A DNA stretch of 64,000 bases. It comes from a bacterium (GTDB taxonomy: Bacteria > CG2-30-53-67 > CG2-30-70-394). A program made the position numbers and the translations under genes. The stretch covers positions 14,405 through 78,404 of the forward strand of contig DASWHD010000135.1 of NCBI GenBank assembly GCA_036393335.1, in the 5' to 3' direction. Numbering within the stretch: position 1 is the first letter of the stretch; each line of letters begins with the position of its first letter. Positions 1 to 25,327 of the stretch are shown here, piece after piece. Under the pieces are notes generated by a model. The model searched no databases. It had not been told where the DNA came from and saw nothing but the letters and a program-made list of their open reading frames with translations.

Positions 1-99
1 CCACCCCGGTCTACGTCCTCTCCGCGGGCCCGGACGGGGTCCTCCAGACCTCCGCAGGCGGGTTGCTCTCGGGGGACGACATCGGCTTCCGGATCCAGT
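1..99 (+). CDS. 3' end of an upstream gene (partial; ...DDIGFRIQ*)
   Basis: Open frame from the window edge to TAA at 97-99; its GC3-rich codon usage is continuous with the following genes. No domain can be assigned from 32 aa. Confidence 0.3.
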
Positions 100-112
100 A
101 AAGGGGGGAGAC

Positions 113-1819
113 GTGGGCCGGCGCCCGGCGGGACCAACGCCTCGTCCCGACAAGCCTCTCGCGACCGGGCCGTCGCTGCCGCTCGGGGAGCGGTTGGTCG
201 AGGCGGGTCACATCACCCGCGCGCAGCTCGCGGTCGCGCTGCGCGAGCAGCGGCGCACCGGGGATCTGCTTGGCAAGGTCCTGATCAACCTGGGCTTTGT
301 CACCGAGGAGGGCATCGAGACCAGCCTGGCCCAGGAGGCGGGGAGCATCCGCCGCCGGTTGGAGTTTCTCGACCTCGACCCGGCGGTGGTGCGACTGGTC
401 CCGGAAGAGATCGCGCGACGCTACACCCTCCTGCCGGTCGGGATGGAGGACGGGGTGTTGCAGGTGGCGATGGCGGACACCTTCGACGTGGTGGCCATCG
501 GCGCGGTGGAGCACGCCACCAGCCTGCCGGTCGACGTGGTGTCGGCGGCGCGCCGGGAGATCGAAATCGCCCTCGATCGCTACTTCCAGAGGGAGGTCTC
601 GCTGGAGGAGGTCACCGAGGAGGTCCTGAGCTACATCGCCCGCGATCAGGAGGCCGTCGAGCAGGGCACGGTCACGCCGCTGATCCGCCTGGTCGACCAG
701 CTCCTGCACAGCGCCATCGACAGTCGCGCCACCGACATCCACGTCGAGCCCGAGGCGCGCGTGTTGCGGGTGCGCTATCGCAATGACGGCCTGTTGCGGC
801 AGGTGGCGGTGCTGCCGGCGCAGATCAGCCGCGGTGTCGTCGCGCGGCTGAAGATCCTCGCCGATCTCAACATCGCCGAGTGCCGCCTGCCCCAGGACGG
901 GCGCATCTCGATCCCGATCGCGGGACGCAACGTGGACCTGCGGGTCTCGACGCTGCCGACCATTTATGGCGAGAACGTGGTGATCCGCATCCTCGACCAG
1001 TCGGGGGTGGTGCTGTCGCTCGACCAGCTCGGTCTCAGCCCGGATCACATGCGGGTGTTCGAGGAATTGATTGCGCGTCCGAACGGCATCCTCCTGGTGA
1101 CCGGCCCGACGGGCTCCGGCAAGACCACCACCCTGTACACGGCGCTCAACGCCCTCAACTCGATGGAGCGGTCGATCGCCACCCTGGAAGATCCAGTGGA
1201 ATATCGCCTGCCCATCGTGCGCCAGACCCAGGTTAATCCAACGGTCGGCATGACCTTCGGCGCCGGCTTGCGCGCCGTCCTGCGCCAGGACCCGGACGTC
1301 ATCCTGGTCGGCGAGATGCGCGATCAGGAGACCGCCGAGCTGGCGGTCAGGGCCGCGCTCACCGGCCACGCGGTCTTTTCCTCGCTGCACACCAACGACG
1401 CCGCGGGCGCCCTACCGCGGATCATCGACATGGGCATCGCGCCGTACCTGGTCGCCTCCTCGGTGAACGGCGTCATCGCCCAGCGCTTGGTGCGCCTGAC
1501 CTGCAACCACTGCAAGGAGCCGTACGAGATGCGCCGGGAGGAGCTGGCGCCCTTCGGCCTGGAGGACGCCGCCGGGTTTACCTTCTATCGCGGTGTCGGC
1601 TGTGACGCGTGTCACGGCAGCGGCTACCGCGGCCGGGCGGCGATCTTCGAGCTGTTGGTGGTGGACGATGGCATCCGCGCCTTGGTGCACGAGCAGGCGA
1701 GCAGCGCCCAGATCCGCAAGGCGGCGGAGGAGGCCGGCATGGCGGTGATGCGCCAGGATGGGATGCAGAAGGCCCTGGTCGGAATGACCACCCTGGAAGA
1801 GGTCTTCCGCGTGACGTAA
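113..1819 (+). CDS. gspE: Type II secretion / type IV pilus assembly ATPase (GspE/PilB family)
   Basis: GTG start preceded by the RBS AAGGGGGGAG. N-terminal T2SSE_N-like domain, Walker A GPTGSGKTTT, Asp/His boxes, and a C-terminal tetracysteine pair (CNHC...CDAC) typical of GspE/PilB. Confidence 0.9.
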   Translation: MGRRPAGPTPRPDKPLATGPSLPLGERLVEAGHITRAQLAVALREQRRTGDLLGKVLINLGFVTEEGIETSLAQEAGSIRRRLEFLDLDPAVVRLVPEEIARRYTLLPVGMEDGVLQVAMADTFDVVAIGAVEHATSLPVDVVSAARREIEIALDRYFQREVSLEEVTEEVLSYIARDQEAVEQGTVTPLIRLVDQLLHSAIDSRATDIHVEPEARVLRVRYRNDGLLRQVAVLPAQISRGVVARLKILADLNIAECRLPQDGRISIPIAGRNVDLRVSTLPTIYGENVVIRILDQSGVVLSLDQLGLSPDHMRVFEELIARPNGILLVTGPTGSGKTTTLYTALNALNSMERSIATLEDPVEYRLPIVRQTQVNPTVGMTFGAGLRAVLRQDPDVILVGEMRDQETAELAVRAALTGHAVFSSLHTNDAAGALPRIIDMGIAPYLVASSVNGVIAQRLVRLTCNHCKEPYEMRREELAPFGLEDAAGFTFYRGVGCDACHGSGYRGRAAIFELLVVDDGIRALVHEQASSAQIRKAAEEAGMAVMRQDGMQKALVGMTTLEEVFRVT

Positions 1820-1903
1820 GGCGCGAAGCTCGCAGCTCGATCGAAAACAACGGAATCATTAGTCCGACGAGCGAATTGTTAACCGCTGACCGCTATCCCA
1901 TCC

Positions 1904-3097
1904 ATGGCTTACTTTCAGTATCAGGCGACCTCTCTGGATGGCCAGACCCGGCAAGGCCTCATGGAGGCCAACGACGAGGGCGAGCTCTATCGGCGTCTGC
2001 GCGAGGCGGACCTGTTTCTCCTCCGGGCCCGGCCCGCCAGAGCCAAGCGGATCGACCGCTCCGTGCGGCTGAATCGCAAGGAGCGGCTGGAGATCAGCCA
2101 CCACCTCGCGACGGTGCTCGTTGCCGGCATCGGCATCCTCACGGCCCTGGAGGACTTGGCGAACCACGTGGCGCCCCGCCATCGCCAGATGGTCGCGACC
2201 CTGGCGGATCGGGTGCGCGGGGGCGACGATCTGTCCGCCGCCATGAACCTGTTCCCCGACGCCTTCCCCGAGACCTTCGTCCGGGTGATCGAGGCGGGGG
2301 AGGCGACCGGCAGCCTGGCCGAGCGCTTCCAGGATCTGGTGGCGGACCTGGAGTGGCAAGTCGAGCTGCGCCGCCTGGTGCGTAAGGCGACCGTCTATCC
2401 CATCACCGTGGTGGTGGCGTTGGTCGGGCTGGTGGCCCTGATTCTCACGGTGGTGGTGCCGCAGTTCGCGTCGGTGTTCGAGCAAGTGGGGGTAGAGCTG
2501 CCGCTCCCGACCCGGGTGGTGATGGTCACCAGCCGCTTTGTCGCCGGTCACGCGACAATCCTGGGCGGCGGCGTCGCGGCATTGGTCGTCGGGGTGTGGA
2601 TGCTGCGGCGTTTCAGCCGCGGGCGGTACCTGCTCGACCGGCTTCTCTTGTCGTTACCCGTGCTCGGTGGGTTGCGGGCGAAACTGGCGGTGGCGATGGC
2701 GGCCCATCTCCTCGGCCTCCTGTATCGCGCCGGTGTGGGCTTATTGAAGGCGCTCCAGATCACCTCAGGGGTGGTCGCGTCGCCGGTCTATCAGTCGGCG
2801 TTGCGGCGTGCGGGAGAGCGGGTGCGGGAGGGGGCGACCCTGTCCGAGGCCCTGGGCAGCAGCGGCTGCTTCCCGTCGCTGTTTCTGCGCATGGTGCAGG
2901 TGGGCGAGAGTACCGGCGACCTCGATACCACCCTGGCGCGCGTCAATCGCTACTTCCGTGCCGAGGTGCCACGGACGGTGGAGATGTCCCTGGCCGTGCT
3001 CCAGCCGACATTGTTGGCGATCCTCGGTGCCGTGGTCGGGGGCGTGGCCCTGTCGGTCTTTTTGCCGATGTACCGCATGATGGACGTGATCCAATGA
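1904..3097 (+). CDS. gspF: Inner-membrane platform protein GspF/PilC family
   Basis: 397 aa with two T2SS-F domains (repeated GE(A/S)TG motif) and three predicted TM segments; directly downstream of the ATPase. Confidence 0.9.
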   Translation: MAYFQYQATSLDGQTRQGLMEANDEGELYRRLREADLFLLRARPARAKRIDRSVRLNRKERLEISHHLATVLVAGIGILTALEDLANHVAPRHRQMVATLADRVRGGDDLSAAMNLFPDAFPETFVRVIEAGEATGSLAERFQDLVADLEWQVELRRLVRKATVYPITVVVALVGLVALILTVVVPQFASVFEQVGVELPLPTRVVMVTSRFVAGHATILGGGVAALVVGVWMLRRFSRGRYLLDRLLLSLPVLGGLRAKLAVAMAAHLLGLLYRAGVGLLKALQITSGVVASPVYQSALRRAGERVREGATLSEALGSSGCFPSLFLRMVQVGESTGDLDTTLARVNRYFRAEVPRTVEMSLAVLQPTLLAILGAVVGGVALSVFLPMYRMMDVIQ

Positions 3098-4686
3098 GCG
3101 CCGTCCGGCGGTCTACCGGCCGCCTCGTACGGCGCCAGAGATCCGCATACCACCTGAGCGTGGTGGTGACCCGGGGTCGGGGCCTGATTGCCGAGCTGGA
3201 GATCGGCGCCCGCGGCCCACGGCCGGTACGGGCGGTGCCCTTCCTCTTCGCCAAGGACGACTGGCAATCGCTCCGCGCGGCGCTGCACGACGCGGTCCGC
3301 GGTGGCGGCTGGCGTGCCCGGCAGGTCTCCTTCGCCCTCGGTGGCGATGGCGTGCGCCACGGCGTGGTGGAGGTGCCGTTGTTGCCCGACAGTAAGTTGG
3401 ACCGCCTCTTGACCCACGAGGCGGCGGCATTGGCCGGGGCCACGGAGGAGGCGGCGCCCATCACCGGCTACACGTGGGGCTACCACCGCTATCCGTCCGC
3501 AGGGGGCGCGCAACAGGTGTTGCTCGCCCTCGCCGACCGGCAATTGGTTGACGCAGCGGTCGCCGCCGTGGTCGACGCGGGCCTCATGCCGGCGCGCGCT
3601 ACGACCATCGAGATCGCCGGCCTGCAACGCCTCCTGCGAGACGATGTGTTTGCCGAGAGCGGTCTGGTGGCACACGTGGCCGTCGACGACGAGGAGACAT
3701 CGTTCACCGTCTTCGACGGGGAGCGCCTGGTTTTCAACCGCGCCCTCCTGCGCGGTTTCCGACCCATGGGGGGAGCGAGCGGCACGGTGGGGCCGGAGGA
3801 GAGGGCGGCCCTGGAACGACTGGCGCTGGAGCTGCAGCGCACCACCCTGTACATCAAGCGGGAGATGCGCCGTCCCGTGGAGTTGATGGTCATCGGCGGC
3901 ATCCCGCGCGCGGCCCAGGCGGCACGGGAGGTGATCGCGGAGCACCTGCGGCTGCCGCTCGCGTGGGAGAGCCTGCCGCCGGAAGGCATGCAGGCGGAAG
4001 CCGCCGCCGAAGTGCTCTACCTGGCGGCCGTCGGCGCCGCCCTCTCGGGGAGGTCCATCGTCGCCATCGATCTGCTCCCACACCGCTCCTTCGACGAACG
4101 CCACCCATGGGTCGGCTGGGAGGCGGTCGCGGCCGGGGTGGCGCTCTGGGTTGGCGCCGGGGCATGGGTTGGTGGGGAGCTTGCGGCGCTTCGGGGTCAG
4201 ACCACGGTGGCGGCGGCGCGGCTTGCCGGGCTGCAGGAGCGTTACCAACCGACGTCGCGGGTGATCGACGGGGCGTATCGTGAATTGCAGGACCGTCGCG
4301 CGGAGATCGACCGCTACCTGCGGGCCGCCGGACCCAGCCACGCTCCCCTAACCCCCACCGCGGCGATGGCGATTCTCGGCGCCGGATTGCCGGGTGACGT
4401 GGTGCTCCTCGACTGCCTGCTGGAACGGGTTGGCCAGGCGTGGTGGTGCACCCTGCGCGGGGCACTGGTGGTCGCCAGTCGTGCCGCCGCCGAACGGAGC
4501 TACCAGAATCTCCTCACCCACCTGGAACGCTCTCCCTACGTCACCTTGGAGATAACCGGGCGGGAGCGCGTGCCGCCCACCTCCGGGCGTGCCGGCAAGG
4601 TTAATCTGGCCCGGGACGTCGATGGCGGCTCCATCTACCCCTTCGAGATCACTTGCCATCTGGCGGTGCCGGGAGAGGGGCGATGA
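3094..4686 (+). CDS. GspL-like protein: a fusion of PilM-like (actin-like, cytoplasmic), a TM helix and a PilN-like periplasmic domain
   Basis: ATGA overlap with gspF. The N-terminal ~340 aa resemble PilM/GspL-cyto. A single TM segment (WEAVAAGVALWVGAGAWVGG) is followed by a periplasmic domain. The real start is the internal Met of the 696-aa ORF. Confidence 0.65.
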   Translation: MSAVRRSTGRLVRRQRSAYHLSVVVTRGRGLIAELEIGARGPRPVRAVPFLFAKDDWQSLRAALHDAVRGGGWRARQVSFALGGDGVRHGVVEVPLLPDSKLDRLLTHEAAALAGATEEAAPITGYTWGYHRYPSAGGAQQVLLALADRQLVDAAVAAVVDAGLMPARATTIEIAGLQRLLRDDVFAESGLVAHVAVDDEETSFTVFDGERLVFNRALLRGFRPMGGASGTVGPEERAALERLALELQRTTLYIKREMRRPVELMVIGGIPRAAQAAREVIAEHLRLPLAWESLPPEGMQAEAAAEVLYLAAVGAALSGRSIVAIDLLPHRSFDERHPWVGWEAVAAGVALWVGAGAWVGGELAALRGQTTVAAARLAGLQERYQPTSRVIDGAYRELQDRRAEIDRYLRAAGPSHAPLTPTAAMAILGAGLPGDVVLLDCLLERVGQAWWCTLRGALVVASRAAAERSYQNLLTHLERSPYVTLEITGRERVPPTSGRAGKVNLARDVDGGSIYPFEITCHLAVPGEGR

Positions 4687-5264
4687 TCACCCTGCGTATA
4701 CCCGCGCTGCGCCGCCGTTGGGTGAGGCTCGTCGTGGCGGCAACGCTCCCCTGTCTCCTGGCCGGAACGTTCTACGGTCTGGCCGTCCAGCCGGTCATCC
4801 ACGGCGGCAAGCGGGTGATGGCGAGCTGGAATGGCATCGTCGACGCGTTAGGGGGGACGGTCCAACGCAGCCACGCAATCGCAGGCGGCAGCCTCAGGGA
4901 GGTGGCAGTCTGCGCCAAGTGGATCGAACAACGGGTGCCGGCGACCGTGGCGCCGGCGGCCTTCCTGGAGGAGCTGCGAGAGATCGGCGCCGAGTTGGGA
5001 ATCGAGCGCTTCGAGTACCACAGCGGCACCGCCAGGGCGATCGGCGACACGGGTTACCGGGCCGATCCGATCGAGGTGCGCATCGTCGCACCGTACGCGG
5101 TGCTCCTCGCCTTCTGGCAGCGCATCGAACCCATGGACCGGCCGCTGGCGTGGACGACCTTGCGCCTGCGCCGCTACGGTGGCGGCGTCGCCGCGACCTT
5201 CGTCATCGAGCTCTTGTCGCGCCCCGCGGTCGCCGCGGACGGTCCCGCCGGAGGGGTGAGGTGA
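4683..5264 (+). CDS. PilO/GspM-like bitopic membrane protein
   Basis: ATGA overlap with the upstream gene; N-terminal TM segment (LVVAATLPCLLAGTFYGLAV) followed by a ~150 aa periplasmic domain. The assignment rests on position in the cluster. Confidence 0.45.
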   Translation: MITLRIPALRRRWVRLVVAATLPCLLAGTFYGLAVQPVIHGGKRVMASWNGIVDALGGTVQRSHAIAGGSLREVAVCAKWIEQRVPATVAPAAFLEELREIGAELGIERFEYHSGTARAIGDTGYRADPIEVRIVAPYAVLLAFWQRIEPMDRPLAWTTLRLRRYGGGVAATFVIELLSRPAVAADGPAGGVR

Positions 5265-5824
5265 GCGGCATTCCGCGCCCGGTGGTTATTGCCGCACTGG
5301 TGGCACTCGCCACCGCCGCAGTGGTGCGTAACGTGATCTTCTTCGGGGGCTACGGGAGCGACCGCGTGAGGCCGGCGAGCTCGACCGATGGTTCGCTGGC
5401 CGCGGTGGTTGTACCGAAGGTGGGGAGCGGGGTGGCGATACAGGGAGGGGCCGGGGGACCCCCGTCGGCTACGCCACCCGAGCGACGCCTCGCGGCGTTG
5501 CTGCGGAGTGCGCCAGTCGTGCCGGCGGATGCGGCATCGGCGCGGGACCCCTTCCACCTACCGCCACCCCCGCCACCGGCGCGACCCCAGGAGATCGCCA
5601 CCCCACCTAAACCGGGGACGCCCGAGTTGCGCATCCTCCTGACCTCGGAGAAGCGTCAGGTCGCGATGGTCGACGGGCACATCGTAGCGCCGGGCGATCG
5701 GGTCCGAGGCCGGCGGGTCGCCGAGATCACCGCCGAGGGCCTGCGCCTCGTTGGCAGGGGCGGGGAGACGCGGATTGAGTTGCCACTCCTGCCAACCGAT
5801 CTAGCGGACGATGAACAACGTTGA
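5261..5824 (+). CDS. PilP/GspC-like protein (N-terminal TM/lipo segment, Pro-rich linker, C-terminal PilP/HR-type beta domain)
   Basis: GTGA overlap start. The C-terminus (ILLTSEKRQVAMVDGHIVAPGDRVRGRRVAEITAEGLRLV) matches the PilP / GspC HR domain pattern. It sits directly upstream of the secretin. Confidence 0.5.
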   Translation: MSGIPRPVVIAALVALATAAVVRNVIFFGGYGSDRVRPASSTDGSLAAVVVPKVGSGVAIQGGAGGPPSATPPERRLAALLRSAPVVPADAASARDPFHLPPPPPPARPQEIATPPKPGTPELRILLTSEKRQVAMVDGHIVAPGDRVRGRRVAEITAEGLRLVGRGGETRIELPLLPTDLADDEQR

Positions 5825-7424
5825 AGCCATACGGGTGACATTTGTCACCCTCGCCGCCGGTGCGGTGCTGGCAGCATGCGCGCATGGCCCGGCCGGGCCG
5901 GCCCCGGCGCTTCCGGTGTTGGCGCCGCCGCACGTCGAACCGCAGGTATTGCAGGTGATCGACGTCGTCGCGGTCGAGCCAGAGCCCGGGCCGGAGCGGT
6001 TCACCCTGGCGGTGACGGACGCGGACCTCGCCGAGGTGCTGATGGTCCTGGCGAAGGATGCATCGTTCTCCGTCACCCTCGCCCCCGGCGTGCACGGGCG
6101 GGTGACCGGCGACCTCAAGGCGGTGACCCTCAGCGAGGCCCTGGACGCCCTGCTCGAGCCCTTGGGGTATGCCTACCGCATCGCGGGGGAACGGGTGCAC
6201 GTGTTCCCGCCCGGCGTGATGACCCGCACCTTCTATCTCGACTATCTGAACGCCAAGCGCGGCGGCAACACGACCCTGACCATCAGCGCCGGGGCGGGCG
6301 ACGGTGTGGGCGTGGGCGGACATGCGAGCTCTTCCATCAGCCGCAGCGTCGACGTCGACCTCTGGGACGAGGTGGCAACGGGGTTACAGACGGTGATCAC
6401 CTCGGGAGGGACGGCGGCCGGTGCTGTGACCCAGGTGGTGATCAATCGCCAGGCCGGCACCCTTCTGGTGACGGCGCACCCGCCGGTGATGGAGCGGGTC
6501 GCCGCGTACCTGGACGAGATCCAGCGCTCCATCGTTCGGCAGGTGATGATCGAGGCGAAGATCATCGAGGTGCAGCTCTCCGACGGCTTCAAGATGGGGG
6601 TGGACTGGGCGGCCATCCCGGGCATGGCCGGGGGGTTCACCGGCAACCTTACCGGTGGGATCGCCGACAGCCTCGGCCTGCGGCCCAGCCTCAGTCAGGA
6701 CCTCGGCGGTAGCAACACGGCGTTTCGCTTTGGCGCCACCTCCCACGACCTCACCCTTCTCCTGGATGCCATCGCTACCCAGGGACAGGTGCGGGTCCTG
6801 TCGAGCCCGCGTATCGCGGCGCTGAACAACCAGCCCGCAGTGATCAAGGTGGCACAGGAGCAGACCTTCTTCTCCGTAGACCGCCAGACCAACATCGATG
6901 CCGGGGTGCAGCAGGACAATTTCAGCGTGGACAAGGAGAAGTTTACCATTGGCATCGTGCTCGACATCCTGCCGCGCATCGCGGCGGACGGCACGGTGGT
7001 GATGAACGTCCACCCGAGCGTCACGGAGTTCGTCGCGGAGAAGGTGTTCCCACCCACTGCCAGGGGCGATCAGGTGCTCGCCAATGCCCCCATCCTCGAC
7101 GTGCGGGAGATGGACACCGTGGTCCGCGTGCACGATGGCGAGACTCTGGTGATCGCCGGCCTGATGCGCGAGGAGGATCACGAGCAGATCAGCGCCGTAC
7201 CAGTGCTGGGAGCGATCCCGTTTCTCGGCACCCTGTTTCGCAACACGGACCAGCAGCGCCGTAACTCGGAGCTGGTGATCTTCCTCACGCCGCACGTGAT
7301 CGACGAGGCGACCGACCTCGCGGCGGCGTCGCCGCTCAGCGAGCGGCGGTCGAGCTACCACCTGGGCGGCAAGGCGACGCGCTTCGGGGTGGAGGCGGAG
7401 ACCGAGCTGCGGGGGTGGCGATGA
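5811..7424 (+). CDS. Secretin (PilQ/GspD family), predicted lipoprotein
   Basis: Lipobox LAAC near the N-terminus; secretin_N-like repeats; conserved C-terminal secretin domain (LLDAIATQGQVRVLSSPRIAALNNQPAVIKV...LVIFLTPHVI). Confidence 0.85.
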   Translation: MNNVEAIRVTFVTLAAGAVLAACAHGPAGPAPALPVLAPPHVEPQVLQVIDVVAVEPEPGPERFTLAVTDADLAEVLMVLAKDASFSVTLAPGVHGRVTGDLKAVTLSEALDALLEPLGYAYRIAGERVHVFPPGVMTRTFYLDYLNAKRGGNTTLTISAGAGDGVGVGGHASSSISRSVDVDLWDEVATGLQTVITSGGTAAGAVTQVVINRQAGTLLVTAHPPVMERVAAYLDEIQRSIVRQVMIEAKIIEVQLSDGFKMGVDWAAIPGMAGGFTGNLTGGIADSLGLRPSLSQDLGGSNTAFRFGATSHDLTLLLDAIATQGQVRVLSSPRIAALNNQPAVIKVAQEQTFFSVDRQTNIDAGVQQDNFSVDKEKFTIGIVLDILPRIAADGTVVMNVHPSVTEFVAEKVFPPTARGDQVLANAPILDVREMDTVVRVHDGETLVIAGLMREEDHEQISAVPVLGAIPFLGTLFRNTDQQRRNSELVIFLTPHVIDEATDLAAASPLSERRSSYHLGGKATRFGVEAETELRGWR

Positions 7425-8422
7425 CGACGGCCCGCGAATATCCCAAAAGGATGATCCGGAGTACTCGACAGACCCTGCTGGCTGGGGCGGTCTTCGCATC
7501 TGTTGGGTGGTCCGGGCCAATCGCGGCCGGAGGCGTGGCCGGTGACCTGGACGCCCTGGTCGAGGAGTTGCAAGCCGGCAACCGGTCCGCATACGAGGTG
7601 TTTCCGCCGTTACCGCCGGTCCGCGAAGTTGAACGGTCACCCGCCGGGGGCAAGGTGGTGGCGCCCACCGAAGGCACCGCCGGGACCATGCAGCCCATTG
7701 TCACAGGCGCTGGCAGCGAGCCGGCTGCAAGTAGCCGGCCGACGGTTCGTGCTCGAGTCTTCAGGAATGGCGAGGCGAGTGGCAGCAAGGCCCTGGCGGC
7801 GGACCTCATCCGTCGCGGTACTGAGGCCCTGGACGCCGGGGCGAACGAGCGCGCCGTGCGTCTGCTGCGGGAGGGAGTGAAGCTCGACCCGGGCCATGTT
7901 CCGGGCTACACGAACCTCGGCGCGGCGTTGTTGCAGGCGGGTCGACCCGGGGAGGCGGTCGCGACCCTGGAGACGGCGGTGGCCCTGGATCCCGACCAGG
8001 CGGCGGGTTGGAACAATCTCGCCGTGGCCGAATGGCGCAGCGGTTCGTTCGCTGCGGCGCGCGAGCACTTTCTTCGTGCCGCGGCATTGGACCCCGGTGC
8101 GGCGTCGGCGCTGGTGAACCTCGCCCTTCTGCAATCCCAGCACGGCGATCGCGAGGGCTCGCTGCTCACGCTCCGGCGCGCCCTGGCACGGCCCAACGTG
8201 CCACCCCAGGCCCACCTGCAGTTGGCATTCGCCCTGGAGAGGGCCGGACGCCCGACGGAGGCGGCGTCCCATCTGGAAATCTATCTTGCGACGGCGGTGC
8301 TCCCGGAGCCCGGGCTTGGGAAACGCCTCCAGGCCCATCTGCGAGAGCTACGCACGGCGCCCATGGAGTCCCCCCTCGCGGGCGATCGCCTGCGCAGCCG
8401 GGGCATAGTGAGCGACGATTGA
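7421..8422 (+). CDS. TPR-repeat protein with signal peptide (candidate pilotin/PilF-like accessory)
   Basis: Overlaps the secretin stop. Signal-like N-terminus, then >=4 TPR units (e.g. LGAALLQAGRPGEAVATLETAVALDP). Start could be GTG 7415, ATG 7421 or ATG 7451. Confidence 0.65.
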   Translation: MTTAREYPKRMIRSTRQTLLAGAVFASVGWSGPIAAGGVAGDLDALVEELQAGNRSAYEVFPPLPPVREVERSPAGGKVVAPTEGTAGTMQPIVTGAGSEPAASSRPTVRARVFRNGEASGSKALAADLIRRGTEALDAGANERAVRLLREGVKLDPGHVPGYTNLGAALLQAGRPGEAVATLETAVALDPDQAAGWNNLAVAEWRSGSFAAAREHFLRAAALDPGAASALVNLALLQSQHGDREGSLLTLRRALARPNVPPQAHLQLAFALERAGRPTEAASHLEIYLATAVLPEPGLGKRLQAHLRELRTAPMESPLAGDRLRSRGIVSDD

Positions 8423-8534: not shown

Positions 8535-8768
8535 CTACGCGAGCTGCAGCTCCTCCCGTGCCTTCTCCAGCACGTGGTCGAGCTCGCCCTTCAGGCGTTC
8601 CACCTCGGCCTGGAGCTCGTCGATGTCGTGGCACTCCGGGCAGATGAGGTTGTACCCCTGGGCATCGACGTGCACCGGGTTGACGTAAATGCTCGCCGTT
8701 GGATCCCCCCAGGTGGCGCCTTCGTGACGTTTGGAGATGACTAGGTGGAGGTTGTGGGACATGGCCAT
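8535..8768 (-). CDS. Small hypothetical protein (77 aa; one CPEC motif, C-terminal coiled coil)
   Basis: GC3-biased ORF in an otherwise empty gap; no recognisable family. Confidence 0.35.
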   Translation of the reverse strand: MAMSHNLHLVISKRHEGATWGDPTASIYVNPVHVDAQGYNLICPECHDIDELQAEVERLKGELDHVLEKAREELQLA

Positions 8769-8910
8769 CCTCTCTCGGTTGTCTCAGCAAAAGTATAGCC
8801 GGAGCGGGACGTCCCTCTTGCGCCGGTGGGTGACCAGCCAGCCGGGATCTGTTGAGGCCACCGGCGCGGGTCAGCGGGCGACGCGGAGAATGGCTGGCGG
8901 CCGAATGCGA

Positions 8911-9282
8911 TCAGCGCCCGGAAGACAATCCCGCAACCAGTCGCGGCAGATGCGCGGAGAGCTCGGACCGGGCGACCACCTTGTCGGCGCCGAGGGCGAG
9001 GGCGCGGCGAATGCCCTCGACGTTACCGTGGTTCGTGTAGGCGAGGACCGGTACCCGCACCTCGGGGTCTCCTTTCAGGCGCTCGATGATCTGCATGGCG
9101 TCGATGCGGCCGTTGTCGAGGTCGATGACCAGGCAGGCCGGCGTCCCATCGGCGAGCGCAGCGAAGATCTCCGCCGCGCTGCCCAGCTTCACCACGGTGT
9201 AGCCGTGTGGCTTCAGGGAGGCCTGAATCTTGGCGACAAAGAAAAGATCGGCGATGGCGGTGAGGACGACGGGGGCAGACAC
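8911..9282 (-). CDS. Single-domain response regulator (REC domain only)
   Basis: REC fold signatures are present (phospho-acceptor D in LVIDLDNG, T in AYTNHG, K in ADKVV). The N-terminal acidic pair is degenerate (AIAD). Confidence 0.7.
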   Translation of the reverse strand: MSAPVVLTAIADLFFVAKIQASLKPHGYTVVKLGSAAEIFAALADGTPACLVIDLDNGRIDAMQIIERLKGDPEVRVPVLAYTNHGNVEGIRRALALGADKVVARSELSAHLPRLVAGLSSGR

Positions 9283-9430
9283 GACTGGGCACCGGCGAGA
9301 TCGAGGGGGTACGCTAGGCAGGGCGGCGAATCAACGCAAGGCTGATGTCGGCCGACGCGCGTCGGGGTGTCTGGCCTGGTTTGGGCCGGGCATTCCACTG
9401 CCAGAGAGACGCTGCCACGCCACCCGCGTG

Positions 9431-10948
9431 TCACCGCTGGCGATCCAGGACCTTCCGGATCGCCTCGGTCATCTGCCGGATGCGATACGGCTTTTTCAGA
9501 AAGCCGATGGGGCCATGCGGGGTATCCGGTAGCTCCACGGTGCCGTGACTGGCGGAGAACAGAAATCGTACCGAGGGCGCGATGCAGCCCATCTCCCTGC
9601 AAAGATGGTCGCCGTCGATCCCCGGTGAGGAGAGGTCGAGGAGGACCAGGTCGATGGCGTCGTGGTGCGCGCGGAATAGTTGCAGTGCTTCGGTGGTATT
9701 ACAGGTGGCGATCGAGTTATATCCGGCCTGACCGAGGATCTTCTGGACCGTCTTACACACCACCTCATCCTCGTCCACGATGAGGATCGTTTCGCTGCCG
9801 CCGACCAAGCGCGAGGAGATTGACGGCGGGGGCGCGCTGGCCGGTGTCATCGGCCCGTTAGCGGCGGCCGGGAAAAGTAGCGTGAACGTTGTTCCTTCTT
9901 CTTCCTGGGTGAAGACGTCGACCGTGCCGCCGTGGTTTTCCACGACGGAACGCACCATGGCGAGACCGAGGCCGGTGCCGGCCGCCAGCGGCTTGGTGGT
10001 GAAGAATGGATCGAAGATCTTGCCCACCACCTCCTCGGAGATGCCCACGCCATTGTCCGAGATCGCAATCTCGATGTAGCGTCCCGGCTCCAGACCCTCT
10101 GCATTGTCGTCGGGCAGATACAGGGGACGGGTGGCGAACCCGAGCTTGCCGCCGTCGGGCATCGCCTCGCCCGCGTTGAGGGCGAGGCTGAGGATGACCT
10201 GGTGCAGTTGGCCTAGGTTGCCCTCGATCCGGGGTAGGTCTCGTGCGAGGTTGGTATCGATCTGAATCCGCGGTCCCAGGAGGCGCGGGATCTGGGCGGC
10301 CACTTCCCGTATCACCTGATTGAAGTCGATGGTGTGTCGGCGCGGGATGCGGCTCTCGGAGGCGGTACCGAGGAGCGCCCCGGTGAGCTCCGACGCGGAG
10401 GGTTGGGCCTGACGGTTCGGATCGTGGGCATGAGCCTTCTCCGTGGTGCGCATCGGATTGAGCAGCAGTGCACCGCGCTGCACCACGGTTTGGACCTGGT
10501 GGTGACCGTCGGTGAGCGCCGCCGCGGCCAGCCGGGCAAGCTCGGCGGCGTGACGGAATGCGGCGGCCTCCCGCCGTGCCTCGGCTAGCTCGGCGAGGAG
10601 CGGTGGTAGGAGCACCTTGCGCACCCCCGTGATGAACAGGCTACCGAGCCAGAATGCGCTCGCCAGGAGGAGGGCCGCCAGGACCCCTCCGGAAGGGAGC
10701 GGGGTGCCCAACTGTCGGCAGACGACGGGTAAGGTCACCAGGAGCACCGCGGTGAGGCAGCAGCCCAGGGCCGCACCGCGAGTGAGCAGTCGCGCCACTG
10801 GACGGGGGAGTTGGTCGTCGGGTAAGCGGCCGTCCATTGTCGATTTGCCAGTTGCCTGGGTTGACCCGTGTTCGAGAAAGCGCGGTAACAACGCTGCGAG
10901 GTCGGGATCGTCGGTCTGGAAATGAGCTGCCCGATGTCCTGCCAACAA
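9431..10948 (-). CDS. Membrane-anchored hybrid sensor histidine kinase (2 TM, HATPase_c, C-terminal REC)
   Basis: Two TM helices; G1/G2 boxes (DNGVGI, GTGLGLAMV); C-terminal receiver (ILIVDEDE...LLDLSSPGIDG...KKPY). Start may be the internal Met at 10837. Confidence 0.8.
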   Translation of the reverse strand: MLAGHRAAHFQTDDPDLAALLPRFLEHGSTQATGKSTMDGRLPDDQLPRPVARLLTRGAALGCCLTAVLLVTLPVVCRQLGTPLPSGGVLAALLLASAFWLGSLFITGVRKVLLPPLLAELAEARREAAAFRHAAELARLAAAALTDGHHQVQTVVQRGALLLNPMRTTEKAHAHDPNRQAQPSASELTGALLGTASESRIPRRHTIDFNQVIREVAAQIPRLLGPRIQIDTNLARDLPRIEGNLGQLHQVILSLALNAGEAMPDGGKLGFATRPLYLPDDNAEGLEPGRYIEIAISDNGVGISEEVVGKIFDPFFTTKPLAAGTGLGLAMVRSVVENHGGTVDVFTQEEEGTTFTLLFPAAANGPMTPASAPPPSISSRLVGGSETILIVDEDEVVCKTVQKILGQAGYNSIATCNTTEALQLFRAHHDAIDLVLLDLSSPGIDGDHLCREMGCIAPSVRFLFSASHGTVELPDTPHGPIGFLKKPYRIRQMTEAIRKVLDRQR

Positions 10949-14485: not shown

Positions 14486-14648
14486 TCAGGCTTCCTCCAA
14501 AGTGGGTCTGGCGAGCGCGACAGCGATCCACACCGTCGAACGAGCCCCTCGCCATGCCGCCGCGTGCCTATCCGGACCGTCTTGCCGCTGAGCCGGCAAC
14601 TCCGCAGCACCGGCTCTCGCGACCGCCACCGGTGAGCGACGAGGTGAG

Positions 14649-15575
14649 CTACAGCGTCACGTCACCGAACAGGCTTGCCAGCATCGGCGCCGCGTCGTCC
14701 ATCGCCTCCTCGACGGCGGCGAAGCTCGCCTCGTCCGACATGAGGTGGCGGTACGTGCGGAGGTCTCCCTCTTGGGCGGTGGCCGTGGACAGCATGAGGC
14801 GGCGCTCCGAGCAGCGGTCCGCGATCTGTACCACCAATGGCAGAATGTCCGTAGCCGGCGGCTGGGGCACAACCTCATGAGGATCCCCACCCATCCATGT
14901 GGCCATCGGGCTGCGTCGCGGCTCTTGATGGTGGCCGGAGATCACGGCTTTCTGTTCGTCGGATAGCCGCCACTGTGTGGCGAGGGAACGCCCGAGGATG
15001 GTGTGGTCGACCCCGAAGCGTTCTCGTTCAAGCTGACAGAGGGGACGACTCGCCGGGAGAAGGGGCGTCTGCCCATCCAGGTTCTCCGCGGCGCCCTCCA
15101 TCAGCAACATGCCGATGTCATGCAGCAGACCGGCGGTGAAGGCGTCACCCTCGCGTGCCGGCTCATGCTGCTTCATCAGGTATGCGGCGCCGAACGCAGT
15201 CTCCAGGCCATGGAGACAGAAGGTAATGCCTTTGACGCCGTACACCACCATTTCCTCTTTGGCGGCCTTGGTAAAGAAGGCCTGGGCGAGGGCCAGGGCA
15301 CGAATCCGGCTGAGGCCGAGCAACGGCACAGCGCGACTGATGTCCGATACCGGCGACGGTAAGGCAAAGATTGCCGAGTTGACCCACTGGAGCACCTGGG
15401 CGGCGAGCGCCGGCTCGCTACCCAGAATGCTGGCGATCTGCTTCGAGGGGACCTCCAATTGCGGATCGGAGGTAAGGTCGAGGAGGCGGCGCGCCGCAGC
15501 GGACGGGGCCATCAGATGGGCCTGGCGTTCCACGAGGCGATCGATCTGGGCAGGGGAGAGGAGGGTGGCAGGCAT
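14649..15575 (-). CDS. HDOD domain protein
   Basis: HDOD signatures (LPSPVSDISRAVPLLG, LLHDIGMLLM, VDHTILGRSL). The ORF upstream of MPATLL is Arg-rich overlap with the next gene, so the start is set at MPATLL. The start coordinate is +/-1 nt uncertain: my reading of the homopolymer near 15598-15601 disagrees with the ORF track frame. Confidence 0.65.
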   Translation of the reverse strand: MPATLLSPAQIDRLVERQAHLMAPSAAARRLLDLTSDPQLEVPSKQIASILGSEPALAAQVLQWVNSAIFALPSPVSDISRAVPLLGLSRIRALALAQAFFTKAAKEEMVVYGVKGITFCLHGLETAFGAAYLMKQHEPAREGDAFTAGLLHDIGMLLMEGAAENLDGQTPLLPASRPLCQLERERFGVDHTILGRSLATQWRLSDEQKAVISGHHQEPRRSPMATWMGGDPHEVVPQPPATDILPLVVQIADRCSERRLMLSTATAQEGDLRTYRHLMSDEASFAAVEEAMDDAAPMLASLFGDVTL

Positions 15576-16576: not shown

Positions 16577-16716
16577 CCCTCTCTTATCGCCGTTCCGACG
16601 GATTTCTCATCCGTGGGCCACCCGAAAAAAAGAGGGAAATTTGACGCGCCGCCGGGAGGGGCGACAGGAAATCGACTCCCCCGCCCTTCCCCGCGGGGCG
16701 CTTCTTGCCGTGGAGG

Positions 16717-16735
16717 GCCGGCAAGAGTTGCCGGC
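16717..16735. promoter_or_regulatory. Perfect palindrome GCCGGCAA-gag-TTGCCGGC in the divergent fliK-like / flgF intergenic region
   Basis: 8-bp arms with a 3-bp spacer, ~100 bp upstream of the sigma-54 promoter; a candidate dimeric regulator site (e.g. for an enhancer-binding protein). Confidence 0.35.
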
Positions 16736-16832
16736 GGCTTGGCCACAGCGGGTGGGTAACTCCCTGTCGTATCGGAGAGAAACCCATTGGAGGTCCGATG
16801 GATCTCGGGCCCGTGTGGCGGTTTTTTTGGTA

Positions 16833-16848
16833 TGGCATAACGCTTGCT
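16833..16848 (+). promoter_or_regulatory. Sigma-54 (RpoN) -24/-12 promoter: TGGCAT-N5-TTGCT
   Basis: TGGCATAACGCTTGCT fits the TGGCAC-N5-TTGCW consensus with correct GG-N10-GC spacing; it lies ~55 bp upstream of the flgF start. Confidence 0.5.
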
Positions 16849-16902
16849 CCAAGGCGACGACAGGCGCTGCCTCGTCGTGCATCCGTCGCCTCGGATTTCT
16901 CT

Positions 16903-17619
16903 ATGAACGCCATCTTCCTCGGACTCACCGGTGCCTCTGCCAGAGAGCGGCAGGTCGAGGTCATGGCCAACAACCTGGCGAACGTCTCCACCAGCGGCTT
17001 TAAGGGCGATCGTCTCCGGTTCGAGTCGGTCCTGCTTGCTGAGGAGGGTGCCGCCGGGGTGAAGGTCGCGGCGACCGTCCCCGACCTCAGCGACGGATCG
17101 TTGATCGCCACCGGCCGAGCCCTGGACGTCGCCCTTCAGGGCGGCGGGCTGATGGCGGTCCGCGGGCCGGCAGGGGAGCGGTTCGTGCGCGGCGGCTCGT
17201 TGATGATCGACACCGACGGTAAGCTCGCCCTCACCACGGGGGAGGTGGTGATCGCGGAGACCGGCCGGTCCCTGGAGGTGGGACGGGGCAATGAGGAGCG
17301 GGTGGCGTACACCGGCGACGGTGAAGTGCTGGTCGACGGGGTCTCCGTGGGGCGCCTGCGCCTGCGTATCTTCGCCGAGCCGGAGGCCCTGGTGCGGGAG
17401 GGCGCCGGGCGGTTCCGCGCACCACCCGAGGCGGGTGCGCAGAAAGGTACGGTGCACGTGCACGGCGCCACCCTCGAGCGCGCCAACACCGACGTGACCC
17501 GGGGCCTGGTGGAGATGATCCGCCTGCAACGCGCCTACGAGGTGCAGGTCGAGGCCATGCATCAGCGAGACGGGATCACCCGCACCACGATCGAGGAAGT
17601 AGGCCAGATCGGCCGTTAG
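16903..17619 (+). CDS. flgF: Flagellar basal-body rod protein FlgF
   Basis: N-terminal rod motif (MANNLANVSTSGFK) and C-terminal rod motif (RLQRAYEVQ); ~240 aa; precedes flgG. Confidence 0.8.
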   Translation: MNAIFLGLTGASARERQVEVMANNLANVSTSGFKGDRLRFESVLLAEEGAAGVKVAATVPDLSDGSLIATGRALDVALQGGGLMAVRGPAGERFVRGGSLMIDTDGKLALTTGEVVIAETGRSLEVGRGNEERVAYTGDGEVLVDGVSVGRLRLRIFAEPEALVREGAGRFRAPPEAGAQKGTVHVHGATLERANTDVTRGLVEMIRLQRAYEVQVEAMHQRDGITRTTIEEVGQIGR

Positions 17620-17639
17620 CCGCAAGGTAAGGAGCCACG

Positions 17640-18428
17640 ATGATCCGCGCGCTATTCACCGCCGCCACCGGCATGGAGGCACAGCAGCTCAATATCGACA
17701 CCATCGCCCACAACCTGGCGAACGCCAACACCACCGGGTTCAAGCGCGGGCGCGCCGACTTTCAAGACCTCCTCTACCAGACGGTCACCGCACCGGGCAC
17801 CGCTTCCTCCGCGTCGACGGAGGTGCCGGCCGGTCTGCAGGTCGGCCTCGGGGTGAAGCCGGCGGCGGTGGGTAAGATCTTCGCCCAGGGAGACTTTCGC
17901 AACACCGGCGGCGACCTCGACCTGGCCATCGAGGGGGATGGCTTCTTTCAGGTGGTGCAGCCGAACGGGGAGATCGCCTACAGCCGCGCCGGCGCCCTGA
18001 AGCGCGATAGCACCGGCCAGCTCGTCACCAGCAACGGCTACCTGTTGGAGCCCGCGATCACCCTGCCGGATGACGCCACCTCCGTGACCATCGCCTCCGA
18101 CGGGACGGTCTCGGTCCTCCAGGGCGGGTCGACGACCACCACCATAGTCGGCACGATCGAGCTGGCGGTGTTCCCCAACCCCCAGGGGCTGAACGCGATC
18201 GGTCGCAACCTGTTCGTCGCGAGCGACAGCTCCGGCGATGCCATCACCGGCGTGCCCGGCGAGTCGGGTATCGGCACCCTGAGCCAGGGCTTTCTTGAGA
18301 TCTCCAACGTGTCGATCGCCGAGGAGCTGGTGAACATGATCATGAGTCAGCGCGCCTTCGAGGTGAACTCCAAGTCGATCCAGGCGGCGAACGAAATGCT
18401 GCAGACCACCAACAATCTGATCCGGTAG
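17640..18428 (+). CDS. flgG: Flagellar distal rod protein FlgG
   Basis: [36 protein letters not shown]...[13 protein letters not shown] is the canonical FlgG; 262 aa; RBS AAGGTAAGGAG. Confidence 0.9.
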
Positions 18429-18434
18429 CCGATC

Positions 18435-19190
18435 ATGGCCAGTGCGATCCCTCCTACGATCAGACCCAAGTGGGCCATGGTGGTGACGCTGGTGGCCACG
18501 CTCGTCACGACCGTGGGTGGGCCATGGCCCGCACTCGGTGCCGATGGCGTGCGGGGCCTCGCGGCGGCGGAGGTCCGCAAGCTGGTAGAGCGTTACGTCG
18601 ACGAGCGGCTTGCCGGCTCGGACGACCGCTGGCGGGTGGGCGCGATCCGGGTGAGCGGTGATCCGCAGGTGCCGACGGGTCCGCTGACGATGTCCGTCTC
18701 CCACGGCCGTGGCGTGGAGCTCGTCGGCCCCACGGTCCTGCACCTGGTGGTAAAGGGCCCAGGGGGCTACCAGCGCCGCTTGCGGGTCACGACGGTGATC
18801 GATCGCGACACCCGGGTGCTGGTGGCACGGCGTGATCTGGAGCGCGGCGCCGTGCTCGATAAAGAGGACGTGGGCACCGACTATCGGCCACTGCGTTCCC
18901 TGCCCAACGACGCCACCGCAACGCCGGATGCGGTGATCGCCAAGCAGCTCATCCGCCCGGTGTCGGCGGGCGCCGTGCTGCGGGCCAGTCTGCTCACCAC
19001 CGTACCGGTCGTCAGCCGTGGCGCCCAGGTCTCCCTGGTCGCGAGGCGTGGTGCCCTGCGCATCACGACCCCCGGGATCGTCCGGAAAGACGGCGGTGCC
19101 GGAGAGATGGTGTCGGTGGTCAACCCGGCATCGGGCCAGGTGGTCAACGGACGGGTTGTGGACGGTAAGACCGTGGAGGTGATGTTTTGA
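18435..19190 (+). CDS. flgA: Flagellar P-ring assembly chaperone FlgA
   Basis: Signal peptide plus a C-terminal SAF/FlgA domain (RPVSAGAVLRASLL...GEMVSVVNPASGQVVNGRVV); position between flgG and flgH. Confidence 0.75.
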   Translation: MASAIPPTIRPKWAMVVTLVATLVTTVGGPWPALGADGVRGLAAAEVRKLVERYVDERLAGSDDRWRVGAIRVSGDPQVPTGPLTMSVSHGRGVELVGPTVLHLVVKGPGGYQRRLRVTTVIDRDTRVLVARRDLERGAVLDKEDVGTDYRPLRSLPNDATATPDAVIAKQLIRPVSAGAVLRASLLTTVPVVSRGAQVSLVARRGALRITTPGIVRKDGGAGEMVSVVNPASGQVVNGRVVDGKTVEVMF

Positions 19191-19213
19191 TCGGGTTGTC
19201 GAAGGCGTGGCCA

Positions 19214-22035: not shown

Positions 22036-22047
22036 ACGAGAGGCAAT

Positions 22048-23712: not shown

Positions 23713-23816
23713 CCTCGATCAGCCGATACGGTTGATGGGCAGCCACGGATCTCGAGCGCCGAGACGGCCTGTCCCAGGGCCAGGCAAGAAGCACAGTTGG
23801 GTCGGTGGATTAGCCG

Positions 23817-24989: not shown

Positions 24990-25053
24990 CTCGGAAATGG
25001 ATTTCCCATACGGTATCCATAAATGGCGCCTACGGTGATCCGGAAAGGAGCGC

Positions 25054-25302: not shown

Positions 25303-25327
25303 CGCGCGACCGCAGGGGGAGGAGCAG

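What the first reader, a model, noticed from the sequence alone, without database searches (positions are those of the whole stretch)
113..8422. Compact T2SS/T4P-like assembly cluster with a GspL-like PilM-PilN fusion and a self-lipidated short secretin, but no pilins in view
The gene order is ATPase, platform, fused PilM-TM-PilN (GspL-like), PilO/GspM-like, PilP/GspC-like, secretin, TPR protein. It mixes T2SS and T4aP features. The secretin is only 537 aa and carries its own lipobox (the pilotin-independent 'liposecretin' type). The 530-aa PilM-N fusion is the GspL architecture. No major pilin, minor pilin/pseudopilin or prepilin peptidase is encoded in 8.4 kb downstream, so they must lie upstream of position 1 or elsewhere. 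This could be a non-canonical secretion or competence-type machine.
Basis: partly seen in the sequence, partly recalled or inferred. Interest (0 to 1): 0.5.

Follow-up and report, generated by a model that had tools for sequence, protein, structure and literature searches.

The report
MSH-like pilus machine operon, pilins upstream
This is a complete, compact gene cluster for a type IV filament (pilus-building) machine of the MSHA-like kind in an uncultivated bacterium.

Summary
All seven genes are real, co-oriented and mostly overlapping. They are:
- an assembly ATPase with an MshEN-type N-terminus
- a GspF/PilC platform
- a 530-aa PilM–TM–PilN fusion
- a PilO-like protein
- a TM-anchored protein with a GspC/PilP-type HR domain
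- a 537-aa lipoprotein secretin that passes NCBI's MshL model
- a TPR protein

"No pilins in view" is a window-edge artefact. Bases 1-101 are the 3' end of a prepilin gene. Contigs of the same organism show a 193-aa GspG-like prepilin directly before the ATPase. Further upstream lie an HDOD protein and two larger GspG-like prepilins (268 and 428 aa).

The fused PilM-PilN, the lipidated short secretin, the TPR gene after the secretin, the single locus and the absent prepilin peptidase are all ordinary MSH-type traits. The unusual features are:
- gene order A-E-G-I-J-K-L-N
- no MshM
- GspG-like instead of MshA-like pilins
- a conserved HDOD gene
- alignment proteins too diverged for Pfam

The most likely function is a surface-adhesion filament, possibly gated by c-di-GMP. 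T2SS-like secretion is the main rival. I rate it a new variant of a known kind, of modest interest.

The parts
1..101 (+). 3' end (32 codons plus TAA) of a 193-aa GspG-like prepilin gene. The rest lies upstream of the window.
   Evidence: The window is identical to L004 and L001 across this stretch. The full gene in L004/L007 reads MRNWLSRPIPPSGPTATRNG|FTLIEIVIVV.... It scores N_methyl 28.8 (cutoff 21.2) and T2SSG 28.5 (cutoff 21).
113..1819 (+). Assembly ATPase (568 aa) of the GspE/PilB/MshE class, with an N-terminal MshEN-type domain.
   Evidence: It scores T2SSE 450 bits, MshEN 62.8 bits and NF053729 c-di-GMP domain 65.2 against a cutoff of 38. Walker A is at residue 331, the Asp box at 359, Walker B at 396, the His box at 418 and the tetra-Cys motif at 464. 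A GGGGGAG Shine-Dalgarno lies just upstream of the GTG start. The best PDB matches are Thermus PilF and Geobacter PilB.
179..337 (+). Tandem 24-residue MshEN motifs in the ATPase (aa 23-46 and 52-75, with a 5-aa spacer).
   Evidence: The geometry and the LG/G/L/L core are conserved. The leading Arg is Pro in motif 1 and Leu in motif 2, and position 24 of motif 2 is Glu. Both the strict and the relaxed published patterns fail.
1904..3097 (+). Inner-membrane platform protein (397 aa, GspF/PilC/MshG class).
   Evidence: It has two T2SSF domains, 165 bits. It scores GspF 285.8 and PilC 219-222 bits, all below the curated cutoffs. Three hydrophobic segments were found.
3094..4686 (+). PilM-TM-PilN fusion (530 aa), MshI/GspL architecture. 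The actin-like domain spans roughly aa 20-320, the PilN-type DLLP motif is aa 326-329 (nt 4069-4080), the TM helix is about aa 339-361 (nt 4108-4176), a coiled coil follows, and the C-terminal alpha-beta domain spans aa 420-525.
   Evidence: There is no Pfam hit. The family profile matches M. xanthus PilM at E=5.6e-4. Of 48 relatives found by its profile, 37 are PilM_2, 17 are PilN and 1 is T2SSL. The family profile matches PilM at 9e-65 and PilN at 9.6e-18. The secondary structure of the poor AF2 model fits this layout, and Foldseek's top hits are PilM.
4683..5264 (+). PilO/MshJ/GspM-like bitopic protein (193 aa), with a TM segment at aa 17-35.
   Evidence: Pfam PilO is only E=0.099. The family profile matches M. 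xanthus PilO (3jc8_O) at E=0.0017 over aa 23-171. The gene keeps this position in L008, L011, L012 and L014.
5261..5824 (+). PilP/MshK/GspC-like protein (187 aa): N-terminal TM helix, Pro-rich linker, DPFxLP motif and C-terminal HR beta-domain (aa ~121-175, nt 5621-5785). It has no Cys and therefore no lipobox.
5811..7424 (+). MshL-type lipoprotein secretin (537 aa). The lipobox LAAC ends at Cys23 (nt 5868-5879).
   Evidence: It scores Secretin 148 bits and TIGR02519 MshL 255 against a cutoff of 250.2, while the GspD and PilQ models fall below their cutoffs. PGAP names this exact protein MshL (HEX9593275.1). The lipobox is conserved in 12 of 12 relatives.
7415..8422 (+). Exported TPR protein (335 aa) in the MshN position. 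It is a candidate secretin-assembly factor.
   Evidence: There are many TPR hits and weak PilW and Tgl similarity. It overlaps the secretin stop by 10 nt. A 316-367-aa gene follows the secretin in L008, L011, L012, L014, L015 and L016, with TPR hits on record in four of them and none for L011 or L012.

Best explanation
The region is the machinery part of a complete, single-locus type IV filament system of the MSH-like branch, in an uncultivated diderm, flagellated bacterium (NCBI MAG '[bacterium]'; its nearest named relatives are labelled Nitrospirota). The full locus reads: [98-aa ORF] - prepilin 268 aa - prepilin 428 aa - HDOD protein - small TM protein - GspG-like prepilin 193 aa - ATPase - platform - PilM-PilN fusion - PilO-like - HR-domain protein - MshL lipoprotein secretin - TPR protein.

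Proposed mechanism. All steps below are inferred from homology unless marked as shown.
- Prepilins are cleaved by a prepilin peptidase encoded elsewhere. It is shown that none is present in the locus.
- The hexameric ATPase docks on the cytoplasmic actin-like domain of the fusion protein and on the platform. It drives insertion of GspG-like pilins into a growing filament.
- The periplasmic PilN-like domain of the fusion pairs with the PilO-like protein.
- The HR domain of ORF5 contacts the secretin N0 domain, linking the inner-membrane complex to the outer-membrane pore.
- The secretin is lipid-anchored and probably assisted by the TPR protein.
- The MshEN-type N-terminus may make extension respond to c-di-GMP, and the conserved HDOD protein may feed into that control.

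The most likely output is a surface-adhesion filament used in the switch from swimming to attachment.
For: Gene content and coupling are shown. The upstream pilins and HDOD gene appear in contigs that are about 99% identical to the window. The secretin passes the MshL equivalog cutoff and all named homologues are called MshL. all show the same block: a ~513-555-aa gene in the fusion position (PilM_2 on record in L012 weakly, L014 and L016), two small genes, the secretin and a ~316-367-aa gene. Canonical Colwellia MSH has I1-I2-J-K-L-M-N-E-G-F. The ORF3 N-domain gives its best cross-family pairwise hit to Colwellia MshI1, at 20.8 bits. PilM/PilN, PilO and HR-domain identities are supported. MSH loci are single-locus and lack a prepilin peptidase (PMC6668835), and neither this locus nor the relatives' loci has one. 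MshE binds c-di-GMP through its N-terminal domain and drives MshA pilus extension and attachment (PMC4624765; PMC5013675). A flagellar gene block lies 8 kb downstream. All genes are under purifying selection. BamA, OmpH, LpxD and LpxA in the window show an outer membrane.
Against: - No MshM (ExeA-like ATPase) is present in the 64-kb window or in the loci held for L007, L008, L011 and L012, which reach 10 kb upstream of the cluster. TXSScan lists mshM as mandatory.
- The pilins are GspG-like, not MshA-like.
- The ATPase is no closer to Colwellia MshE (410 bits) than to PilB/PilF in the PDB (455-492 bits). It falls below both the PilB and the GspE cutoffs.
- The MshEN motifs lack the guanine-stacking Arg in both halves, so c-di-GMP binding is unproven.
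- No minor-pilin (GspH-K or PilV-X type) genes and no retraction ATPase are in view.
- No phylogeny with reference systems could be built here.
Confidence: 0.6

Rival explanations
1. The locus is a minimal T2SS-like secretion machine. A short periplasmic pseudopilus of GspG-like subunits pushes folded substrates through the secretin, and no surface pilus is made.
For: - All three prepilins match the GspG family (T2SSG 28.5, 21.7 and 20.1 against a cutoff of 21; the best NCBIfam hit for each is GspG). They carry the DPWG...S.GPDG...DD C-terminal signature.
- The platform scores best against GspF.
- ORF5 is TM-anchored like GspC, not lipidated like PilP, and its best fold match is GspC-HR.
- The fused PilM-PilN has the GspL architecture.
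- There is no retraction ATPase in the window.
Against: - No GspH, I, J or K minor pseudopilins are present.
- The GspD, GspE, GspF and GspG equivalog models all fall below their cutoffs.
- The secretin is MshL-type, with a single N-domain region.
- The fusion's family matches PilM/PilN, not GspL.
- The ATPase N-terminus is MshEN-type, not a GspL-binding N1E domain.
- Two large modular pilins (268 and 428 aa, one with Asp-rich Ca-binding-like repeats) look like adhesin-bearing pilins.
Confidence: 0.25
2. The locus builds a DNA-uptake (competence) pilus.
For: Type IV filament machines with a secretin can serve transformation. The HofQ and ComG models give partial hits.
Against: All competence-model scores are far below their cutoffs. 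No ComEA, ComEC, DprA or PilT-type genes appear in the locus or among the window genes scanned. The neighbouring genes are flagellar and signalling genes.
Confidence: 0.05
3. The locus is a decaying or incomplete remnant. It lacks a peptidase, minor pilins and MshM, and so makes nothing.
For: Several parts that are usually needed are absent from the locus. ORF3 to ORF5 escape Pfam.
Against: All ORFs are intact and overlapping. Synteny is conserved across lineages whose secretins are 48-100% identical. dN/dS is 0.14-0.57 for every gene. MSH loci normally borrow a peptidase from elsewhere.
Confidence: 0.05

Closest known systems
MSHA (mannose-sensitive haemagglutinin) type IV pilus system of Vibrio, Shewanella and Colwellia (mshIJKLMNEGF + mshBACD...)
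   Same: - The secretin is an MshL-type lipoprotein and passes TIGR02519.
- The core order is I (PilM+PilN-like), J (PilO-like), K (small HR/PilP-like), L, then a TPR protein (N).
- The ATPase has an MshEN N-terminus.
- The system sits in a single locus without a prepilin peptidase.
   Different: - E and G precede I-J-K-L-N instead of following it.
- The I protein is one 530-aa fusion here, whereas in Colwellia it is split into two ORFs.
- There is no MshM and no MshF.
- The pilins are GspG-like, with only three of them and two unusually large.
- An HDOD gene is embedded in the locus.
- The K-like protein is TM-anchored and 187 aa.
- The MshEN motifs lack the key Arg.
Type II secretion system (Gsp)
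   Same: It shares GspG-like pilins, a GspL-like fused architecture, a TM-anchored HR-domain protein like GspC, a GspF-like platform and the absence of a retraction ATPase.
   Different: It has no GspH-K, no PDZ or coiled-coil part of GspC, and no multi-N-domain GspD. The fusion is PilM/PilN-type by sequence. All Gsp equivalog models fall below their cutoffs.
Type IVa pilus machine (PilBCMNOPQ, for example in Myxococcus xanthus; PDB 3jc8)
   Same: The best PDB sequence matches of the alignment proteins are M. xanthus PilM, PilN and PilO. The ATPase is closest to PilB/PilF. The PilN-type (N/D)LLP motif is present.
   Different: PilM and PilN are fused. The PilP analogue is not a lipoprotein. 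The secretin is short and self-lipidated. There is no PilT. Everything sits in one locus. The PilB and PilQ models fall below their cutoffs.
MshL-type clusters in Syntrophorhabdus and related MAGs (L014, L016)
   Same: They share the fused 554-555-aa PilM_2 protein, two small proteins, a ~500-aa lipoprotein secretin, a TPR protein, an MshEN ATPase and a platform.
   Different: Their order is I-J-K-L-N-E-G. They are followed by a histidine kinase, a sigma-54 regulator and short (130-200 aa) pilins. Secretin identity to the window is only 34-35%.

Membership tests
MSH-type type IV filament (TXSScan / Denise et al. 2019 definition) | MshL secretin | tested here: met
   TIGR02519 scores 255 bits against a cutoff of 250.2. 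PGAP names the protein MshL. All named homologues are called MshL.
MSH-type type IV filament (TXSScan / Denise et al. 2019 definition) | MshE assembly ATPase with a c-di-GMP-binding MshEN domain | tested here: inconclusive
   PF05157 and NF053729 score above their cutoffs. The domain also occurs in PilB/PilF. The Arg of both motifs is substituted. The ATPase is no closer to Colwellia MshE than to PilB.
MSH-type type IV filament (TXSScan / Denise et al. 2019 definition) | MshG platform | tested here: inconclusive
   Two T2SSF domains are present. No MshG-specific model was available. The best hit is GspF, below its cutoff.
MSH-type type IV filament (TXSScan / Denise et al. 2019 definition) | MshM (ExeA-like AAA ATPase), listed as mandatory | tested here: not met
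   tblastn with Colwellia and L014 MshM finds nothing in the 64-kb window or in L007, L008, L011 and L012. No AAA_16/AAA_22 gene appears in the locus gene lists.
MSH-type type IV filament (TXSScan / Denise et al. 2019 definition) | MshA-type major pilin | tested here: not met
   The adjacent 193-aa prepilin is GspG-like (T2SSG 28.5; the best NCBIfam hit is GspG at 56.7). No MshA-specific model was available for a direct test.
MSH-type type IV filament (TXSScan / Denise et al. 2019 definition) | Single locus with no prepilin peptidase in the locus | tested here: met
   All parts lie within about 13 kb. The gene lists show no Peptidase_A24 and no GxGD[V]K motif was found. The criterion comes from PMC6668835.
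MSH-type type IV filament (TXSScan / Denise et al. 2019 definition) | MshI/J/K accessory set upstream of MshL, with the TPR protein MshN after it | tested here: met
   ORF3 matches Colwellia MshI1 at 20.8 bits. PilM/PilN, PilO and HR-domain identities are supported. The order is the same as in L013, L014 and L016.
Type II secretion system | GspD, GspE, GspF and GspG equivalogs | tested here: not met
   Scores against cutoffs are: TIGR02517 178.8 vs 351; TIGR02533 574.7 vs 630; TIGR02120 285.8 vs 424; TIGR01710 56.7 vs 88.9.
Type II secretion system | Minor pseudopilins GspH, I, J and K | tested here: not met
   Only three prepilins are present within 10 kb upstream, all GspG-like. The GspH and GspJ hits cover only the N-terminal helix.
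Type II secretion system | GspL (T2SSL / GspL_C domains) | tested here: not met
   There is no T2SSL hit. Among 48 relatives, 1 matches T2SSL against 37 for PilM_2. The family profile matches GspL at E=0.94.
Type IVa pilus | PilB and PilQ equivalogs, separate PilM and PilN, lipoprotein PilP, PilT retraction ATPase | tested here: not met
   PilB scores 577.8 against 675.65 and PilQ 159.6 against 284.35. PilM and PilN are fused. ORF5 has no Cys. There is no second PilT/PilB-like ATPase in the window. PilT elsewhere in the genome cannot be tested.

The most novel reading that the evidence does not exclude
This lineage may run a minimal filament machine that sits between MSH pili and T2SS and does without a conventional minor-pilin tip complex and without MshM. 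In this reading, two large modular GspG-like pilins (one carrying Asp-rich, Ca-binding-like repeats) prime or cap the fibre. An embedded HDOD protein plus an Arg-less MshEN domain would provide a control input different from classical c-di-GMP binding.
Probability: 0.12. Interest if true: 0.5.

Novelty: new variant of a known kind. Interest (0 to 1): 0.3.

Why it matters
The result extends MSH-like type IV filament machines to an uncultivated, high-GC lineage. The nearest named relatives of that lineage are labelled Nitrospirota, and no relative of the fusion protein was found in GTDB representative genomes. The locus shows a compact arrangement that mixes MSH-type machinery with GspG-type pilins. 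That is relevant to how MSH pili and T2SS diverged from type IVa pili. It also assigns functions to three proteins that PGAP and JGI call hypothetical (HEX9593272-74). It does not reveal a new kind of machine.

Tried and rejected
- Two genome-contig scans with ORF3 and with its family alignment found no relatives. No named genome could therefore be used for taxonomy or context.
- The word-indexed protein search found only 4 clusters each for ORF3 and for ORF5.
- The AF2 model of ORF3 from a 4-sequence alignment was poor (pLDDT 42.9). I used only its secondary structure and, with caution, its Foldseek PilM hits.
- The afdb50 fold library was unavailable.
- The ORF5 family profile found nothing in PDB sequences. 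The fold search was needed to identify it.
- The published strict and relaxed MshEN regexes fail on this ATPase, and also on the canonical Colwellia MshE. The regex is therefore not decisive.
- The promoter/terminator scan gave nothing above chance.
Curated HMM and PDB bit scores served as a proxy, and they are ambiguous between PilB and GspE.
- I considered and rejected the competence-pilus and decayed-remnant readings.
- An exosortase link (seen only in L012) is not conserved across the relatives.
Full report
**1. The observation**

The window is about 67% G+C. Seven + strand ORFs with coding-type GC3 (0.77-0.89) occupy 113-8422:
- ATPase, 113-1819
- platform, 1904-3097
- ORF3, 3094-4686
- ORF4, 4683-5264
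- ORF5, 5261-5824
- secretin, 5811-7424
- TPR protein, 7415-8422

Apart from one 84-nt gap, every junction is a start/stop overlap. The set therefore reads as one translationally coupled operon. A promoter/terminator scan added nothing above chance. Against a relative whose proteins are 47-86% identical (L008), all seven genes give dN/dS of 0.14-0.57. The three ORFs without Pfam hits are therefore real genes.

**2. What each gene is**

*ATPase.* It scores T2SSE at 450 bits plus MshEN at 62.8 bits. The NCBIfam 'cyclic di-GMP-binding domain, MshE-related' model scores 65.2 against a cutoff of 38. It carries Walker A, an Asp box, Walker B, a His box and a tetra-Cys motif, as assembly ATPases do. 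It scores almost equally on the PilB (577.8) and GspE (574.7) equivalog models, and both scores are below the cutoffs. Its best PDB relatives are Thermus PilF and Geobacter and Myxococcus PilB.

*Platform.* It has two T2SSF domains. It scores best against GspF, below the cutoff.

*ORF3.* It has no Pfam hit. Four lines of evidence identify it:
- A profile of its 4-member family matches M. xanthus PilM at E=5.6e-4.
- An exhaustive HMMER scan of 1.84 billion representatives finds only 93 relatives, mostly 500-570 aa and aligned end to end.
- Of 48 of these relatives, 37 match PilM_2, 17 match PilN, 38 match the Amuc_1101 PilM-like family and only 1 matches T2SSL.
- The 48-sequence profile hits PilM (9e-65, positions 1-312) and PilN (9.6e-18, positions 316-469). 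GspL scores E=0.94.

ORF3 also keeps the PilN-type DLLP motif (aa 326-329) before a Trp/Gly/Ala-rich hydrophobic helix. ORF3 is therefore a diverged PilM-TM-PilN fusion.

*ORF4.* Its family profile matches PilO (3jc8_O) at E=0.0017 across nearly its whole length.

*Secretin.* It passes the MshL equivalog model (255 against 250.2) and fails the GspD and PilQ models. Its lipobox, LAAC ending at Cys23, is conserved in every relative inspected, including bona fide proteobacterial MshL.

*TPR protein.* It overlaps the secretin stop.

**3. The missing pilins**

No class-III signal peptide occurs anywhere in the 64 kb. However, window 1-101 is the last 32 codons of a prepilin gene.

Near-identical metagenome contigs (L001, L004, L006, L007) show the complete 193-aa gene directly before the ATPase. 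Its N-terminus reads ...RNG|FTLIEIVIVV. Its C-terminus reads DPWG...SAGPDG...DDIGF, which is GspG-like. It scores N_methyl 28.8 and T2SSG 28.5, both above the cutoffs.

Further upstream in L007 lie four more genes:
- a ~104-aa TM protein
- an HDOD protein (175 bits)
- two more GspG-like prepilins of 428 and 268 aa; the larger one ends in Asp-rich repeats that look like Ca-binding repeats
- a 98-aa ORF

Beyond these a giant divergent gene begins. The same layout recurs in L008 and L011, though L011 has a single 277-aa gene with no hit on record where L007/L008 carry the two large prepilins.

None of these loci encodes a prepilin peptidase, an MshM-like ATPase or a second PilB/PilT-like ATPase, and neither does the window.

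**4. Comparison with known systems**

Canonical Colwellia MSH reads I1-I2-J-K-L-M-N-E-G-F. Syntrophorhabdus and another MAG read I(fused, 554-555 aa, PilM_2)-J-K-L-TPR-E-G-HK-sigma54 RR-pilins. L012 and L015 share the window's layout. The window's locus reads pilin-E-G-I-J-K-L-TPR. It is therefore a permutation of an MSH-like core.

Jones et al. 2015 already describe MshI as GspL/PilN-like, MshJ as PilO-like and MshN as a TPR protein. They also show that MshE is a c-di-GMP-binding extension ATPase needed for attachment (PMC4624765). Denise et al. 2019 report that MSH systems are single-locus, lack a peptidase and derive from T4aP alongside T2SS (PMC6668835).

The real departures from canonical MSH are:
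- no MshM and no MshF
- GspG-like pilins, two of them large and modular
- the embedded HDOD gene
- E-G placed first
- MshEN motifs that keep the tandem 24+5+24 geometry but replace the guanine-stacking Arg with Pro in motif 1 and Leu in motif 2

**5. Organism**

The exact proteins are NCBI HEX9593271-75 from a MAG labelled only '[bacterium]'. PGAP calls ORF3 to ORF5 hypothetical. The nearest named relatives (secretin 82% identical) are 'Nitrospirota bacterium' MAGs. Two scans of GTDB representative genomes found no relative of ORF3. The window also carries a flagellar block including the L-ring and P-ring genes flgH and flgI, and bamA-ompH-lpxD-lpxA. The host is therefore a flagellated diderm.

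**6. Verdict**

This is a complete MSH-like type IV filament locus in a compact, permuted variant. It most likely makes an adhesion filament that may respond to c-di-GMP. A T2SS-like secretion role is the serious rival, because the pilins and several architectural details are Gsp-like. The finding is sound as an observation, but its premise of missing pilins is a window-edge artefact. I rate the novelty as modest.

Noticed in passing
window 16645-25780 (+): A flagellar gene block: FlgF- and FlgG-like rod proteins, FlgA, FlgH (L-ring), FlgI (P-ring), FlgN, FlgK, an FlgL/flagellin-like protein and FliW. It lies 8 kb downstream of the pilus locus.
   Followed up: partly
L007 2760-4947 (upstream of the window; same organism): Two paralogous large GspG-like prepilins (268 and 428 aa) share a beta-rich extension. 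The 428-aa one ends in Asp-rich DxDxDG-type repeats with many Cys residues. They may be modular adhesin pilins.
   Followed up: partly
L007 5195-6034, and window ~14645-15570 (-): An HDOD-domain protein is embedded between the prepilin genes and is conserved in L008 and L011. A second HDOD gene lies downstream on the minus strand, according to the precomputed annotation of L007. Its role is unknown.
   Followed up: partly
L007 6094-6408: A ~104-aa TM protein lies directly before the major prepilin gene and is conserved in L008 and L011. It has a pilin-like '...EG|LAFL' N-terminus but no Glu5. There are no family hits apart from a faint GspM match at E=0.04.
   Followed up: no
L007 1-1677 (-), also in L008 and L011: A giant ~2650-aa protein combines FAD-binding, acyl-CoA dehydrogenase and ETF-alpha domains. 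It is a conserved divergent neighbour of the locus in three lineages.
   Followed up: no
window 8535-10948 (-): Convergent with the operon end are a 76-aa ORF, a stand-alone receiver protein and a CckA/VirA-like hybrid histidine kinase (HATPase_c + receiver). All are conserved in L001, L002 and L007; L008's contig ends after the receiver.
   Followed up: partly
L012 706-2243 and 12861-13454: In a lineage whose secretin is 48% identical, the same pilin-E-G-I-J-K-L-TPR cassette sits next to exosortase EpsH/EpsI and a PEP-CTERM protein. This link is not seen in the other lineages.
   Followed up: no
L001 and L006 gene calls vs window 3094-5824: JGI gene calling truncates ORF3 to 508 aa and ORF5 to a 65-aa fragment. 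NCBI and Logan and 187 aa. The GTG start and the high G+C probably mislead the callers.
   Followed up: no
window 39709-45523 (+): A bamA - ompH/skp - lpxD - (short ORF) - lpxA outer-membrane biogenesis cluster confirms a diderm envelope. An AcrB-type RND pump lies at 47283-50495.
   Followed up: no
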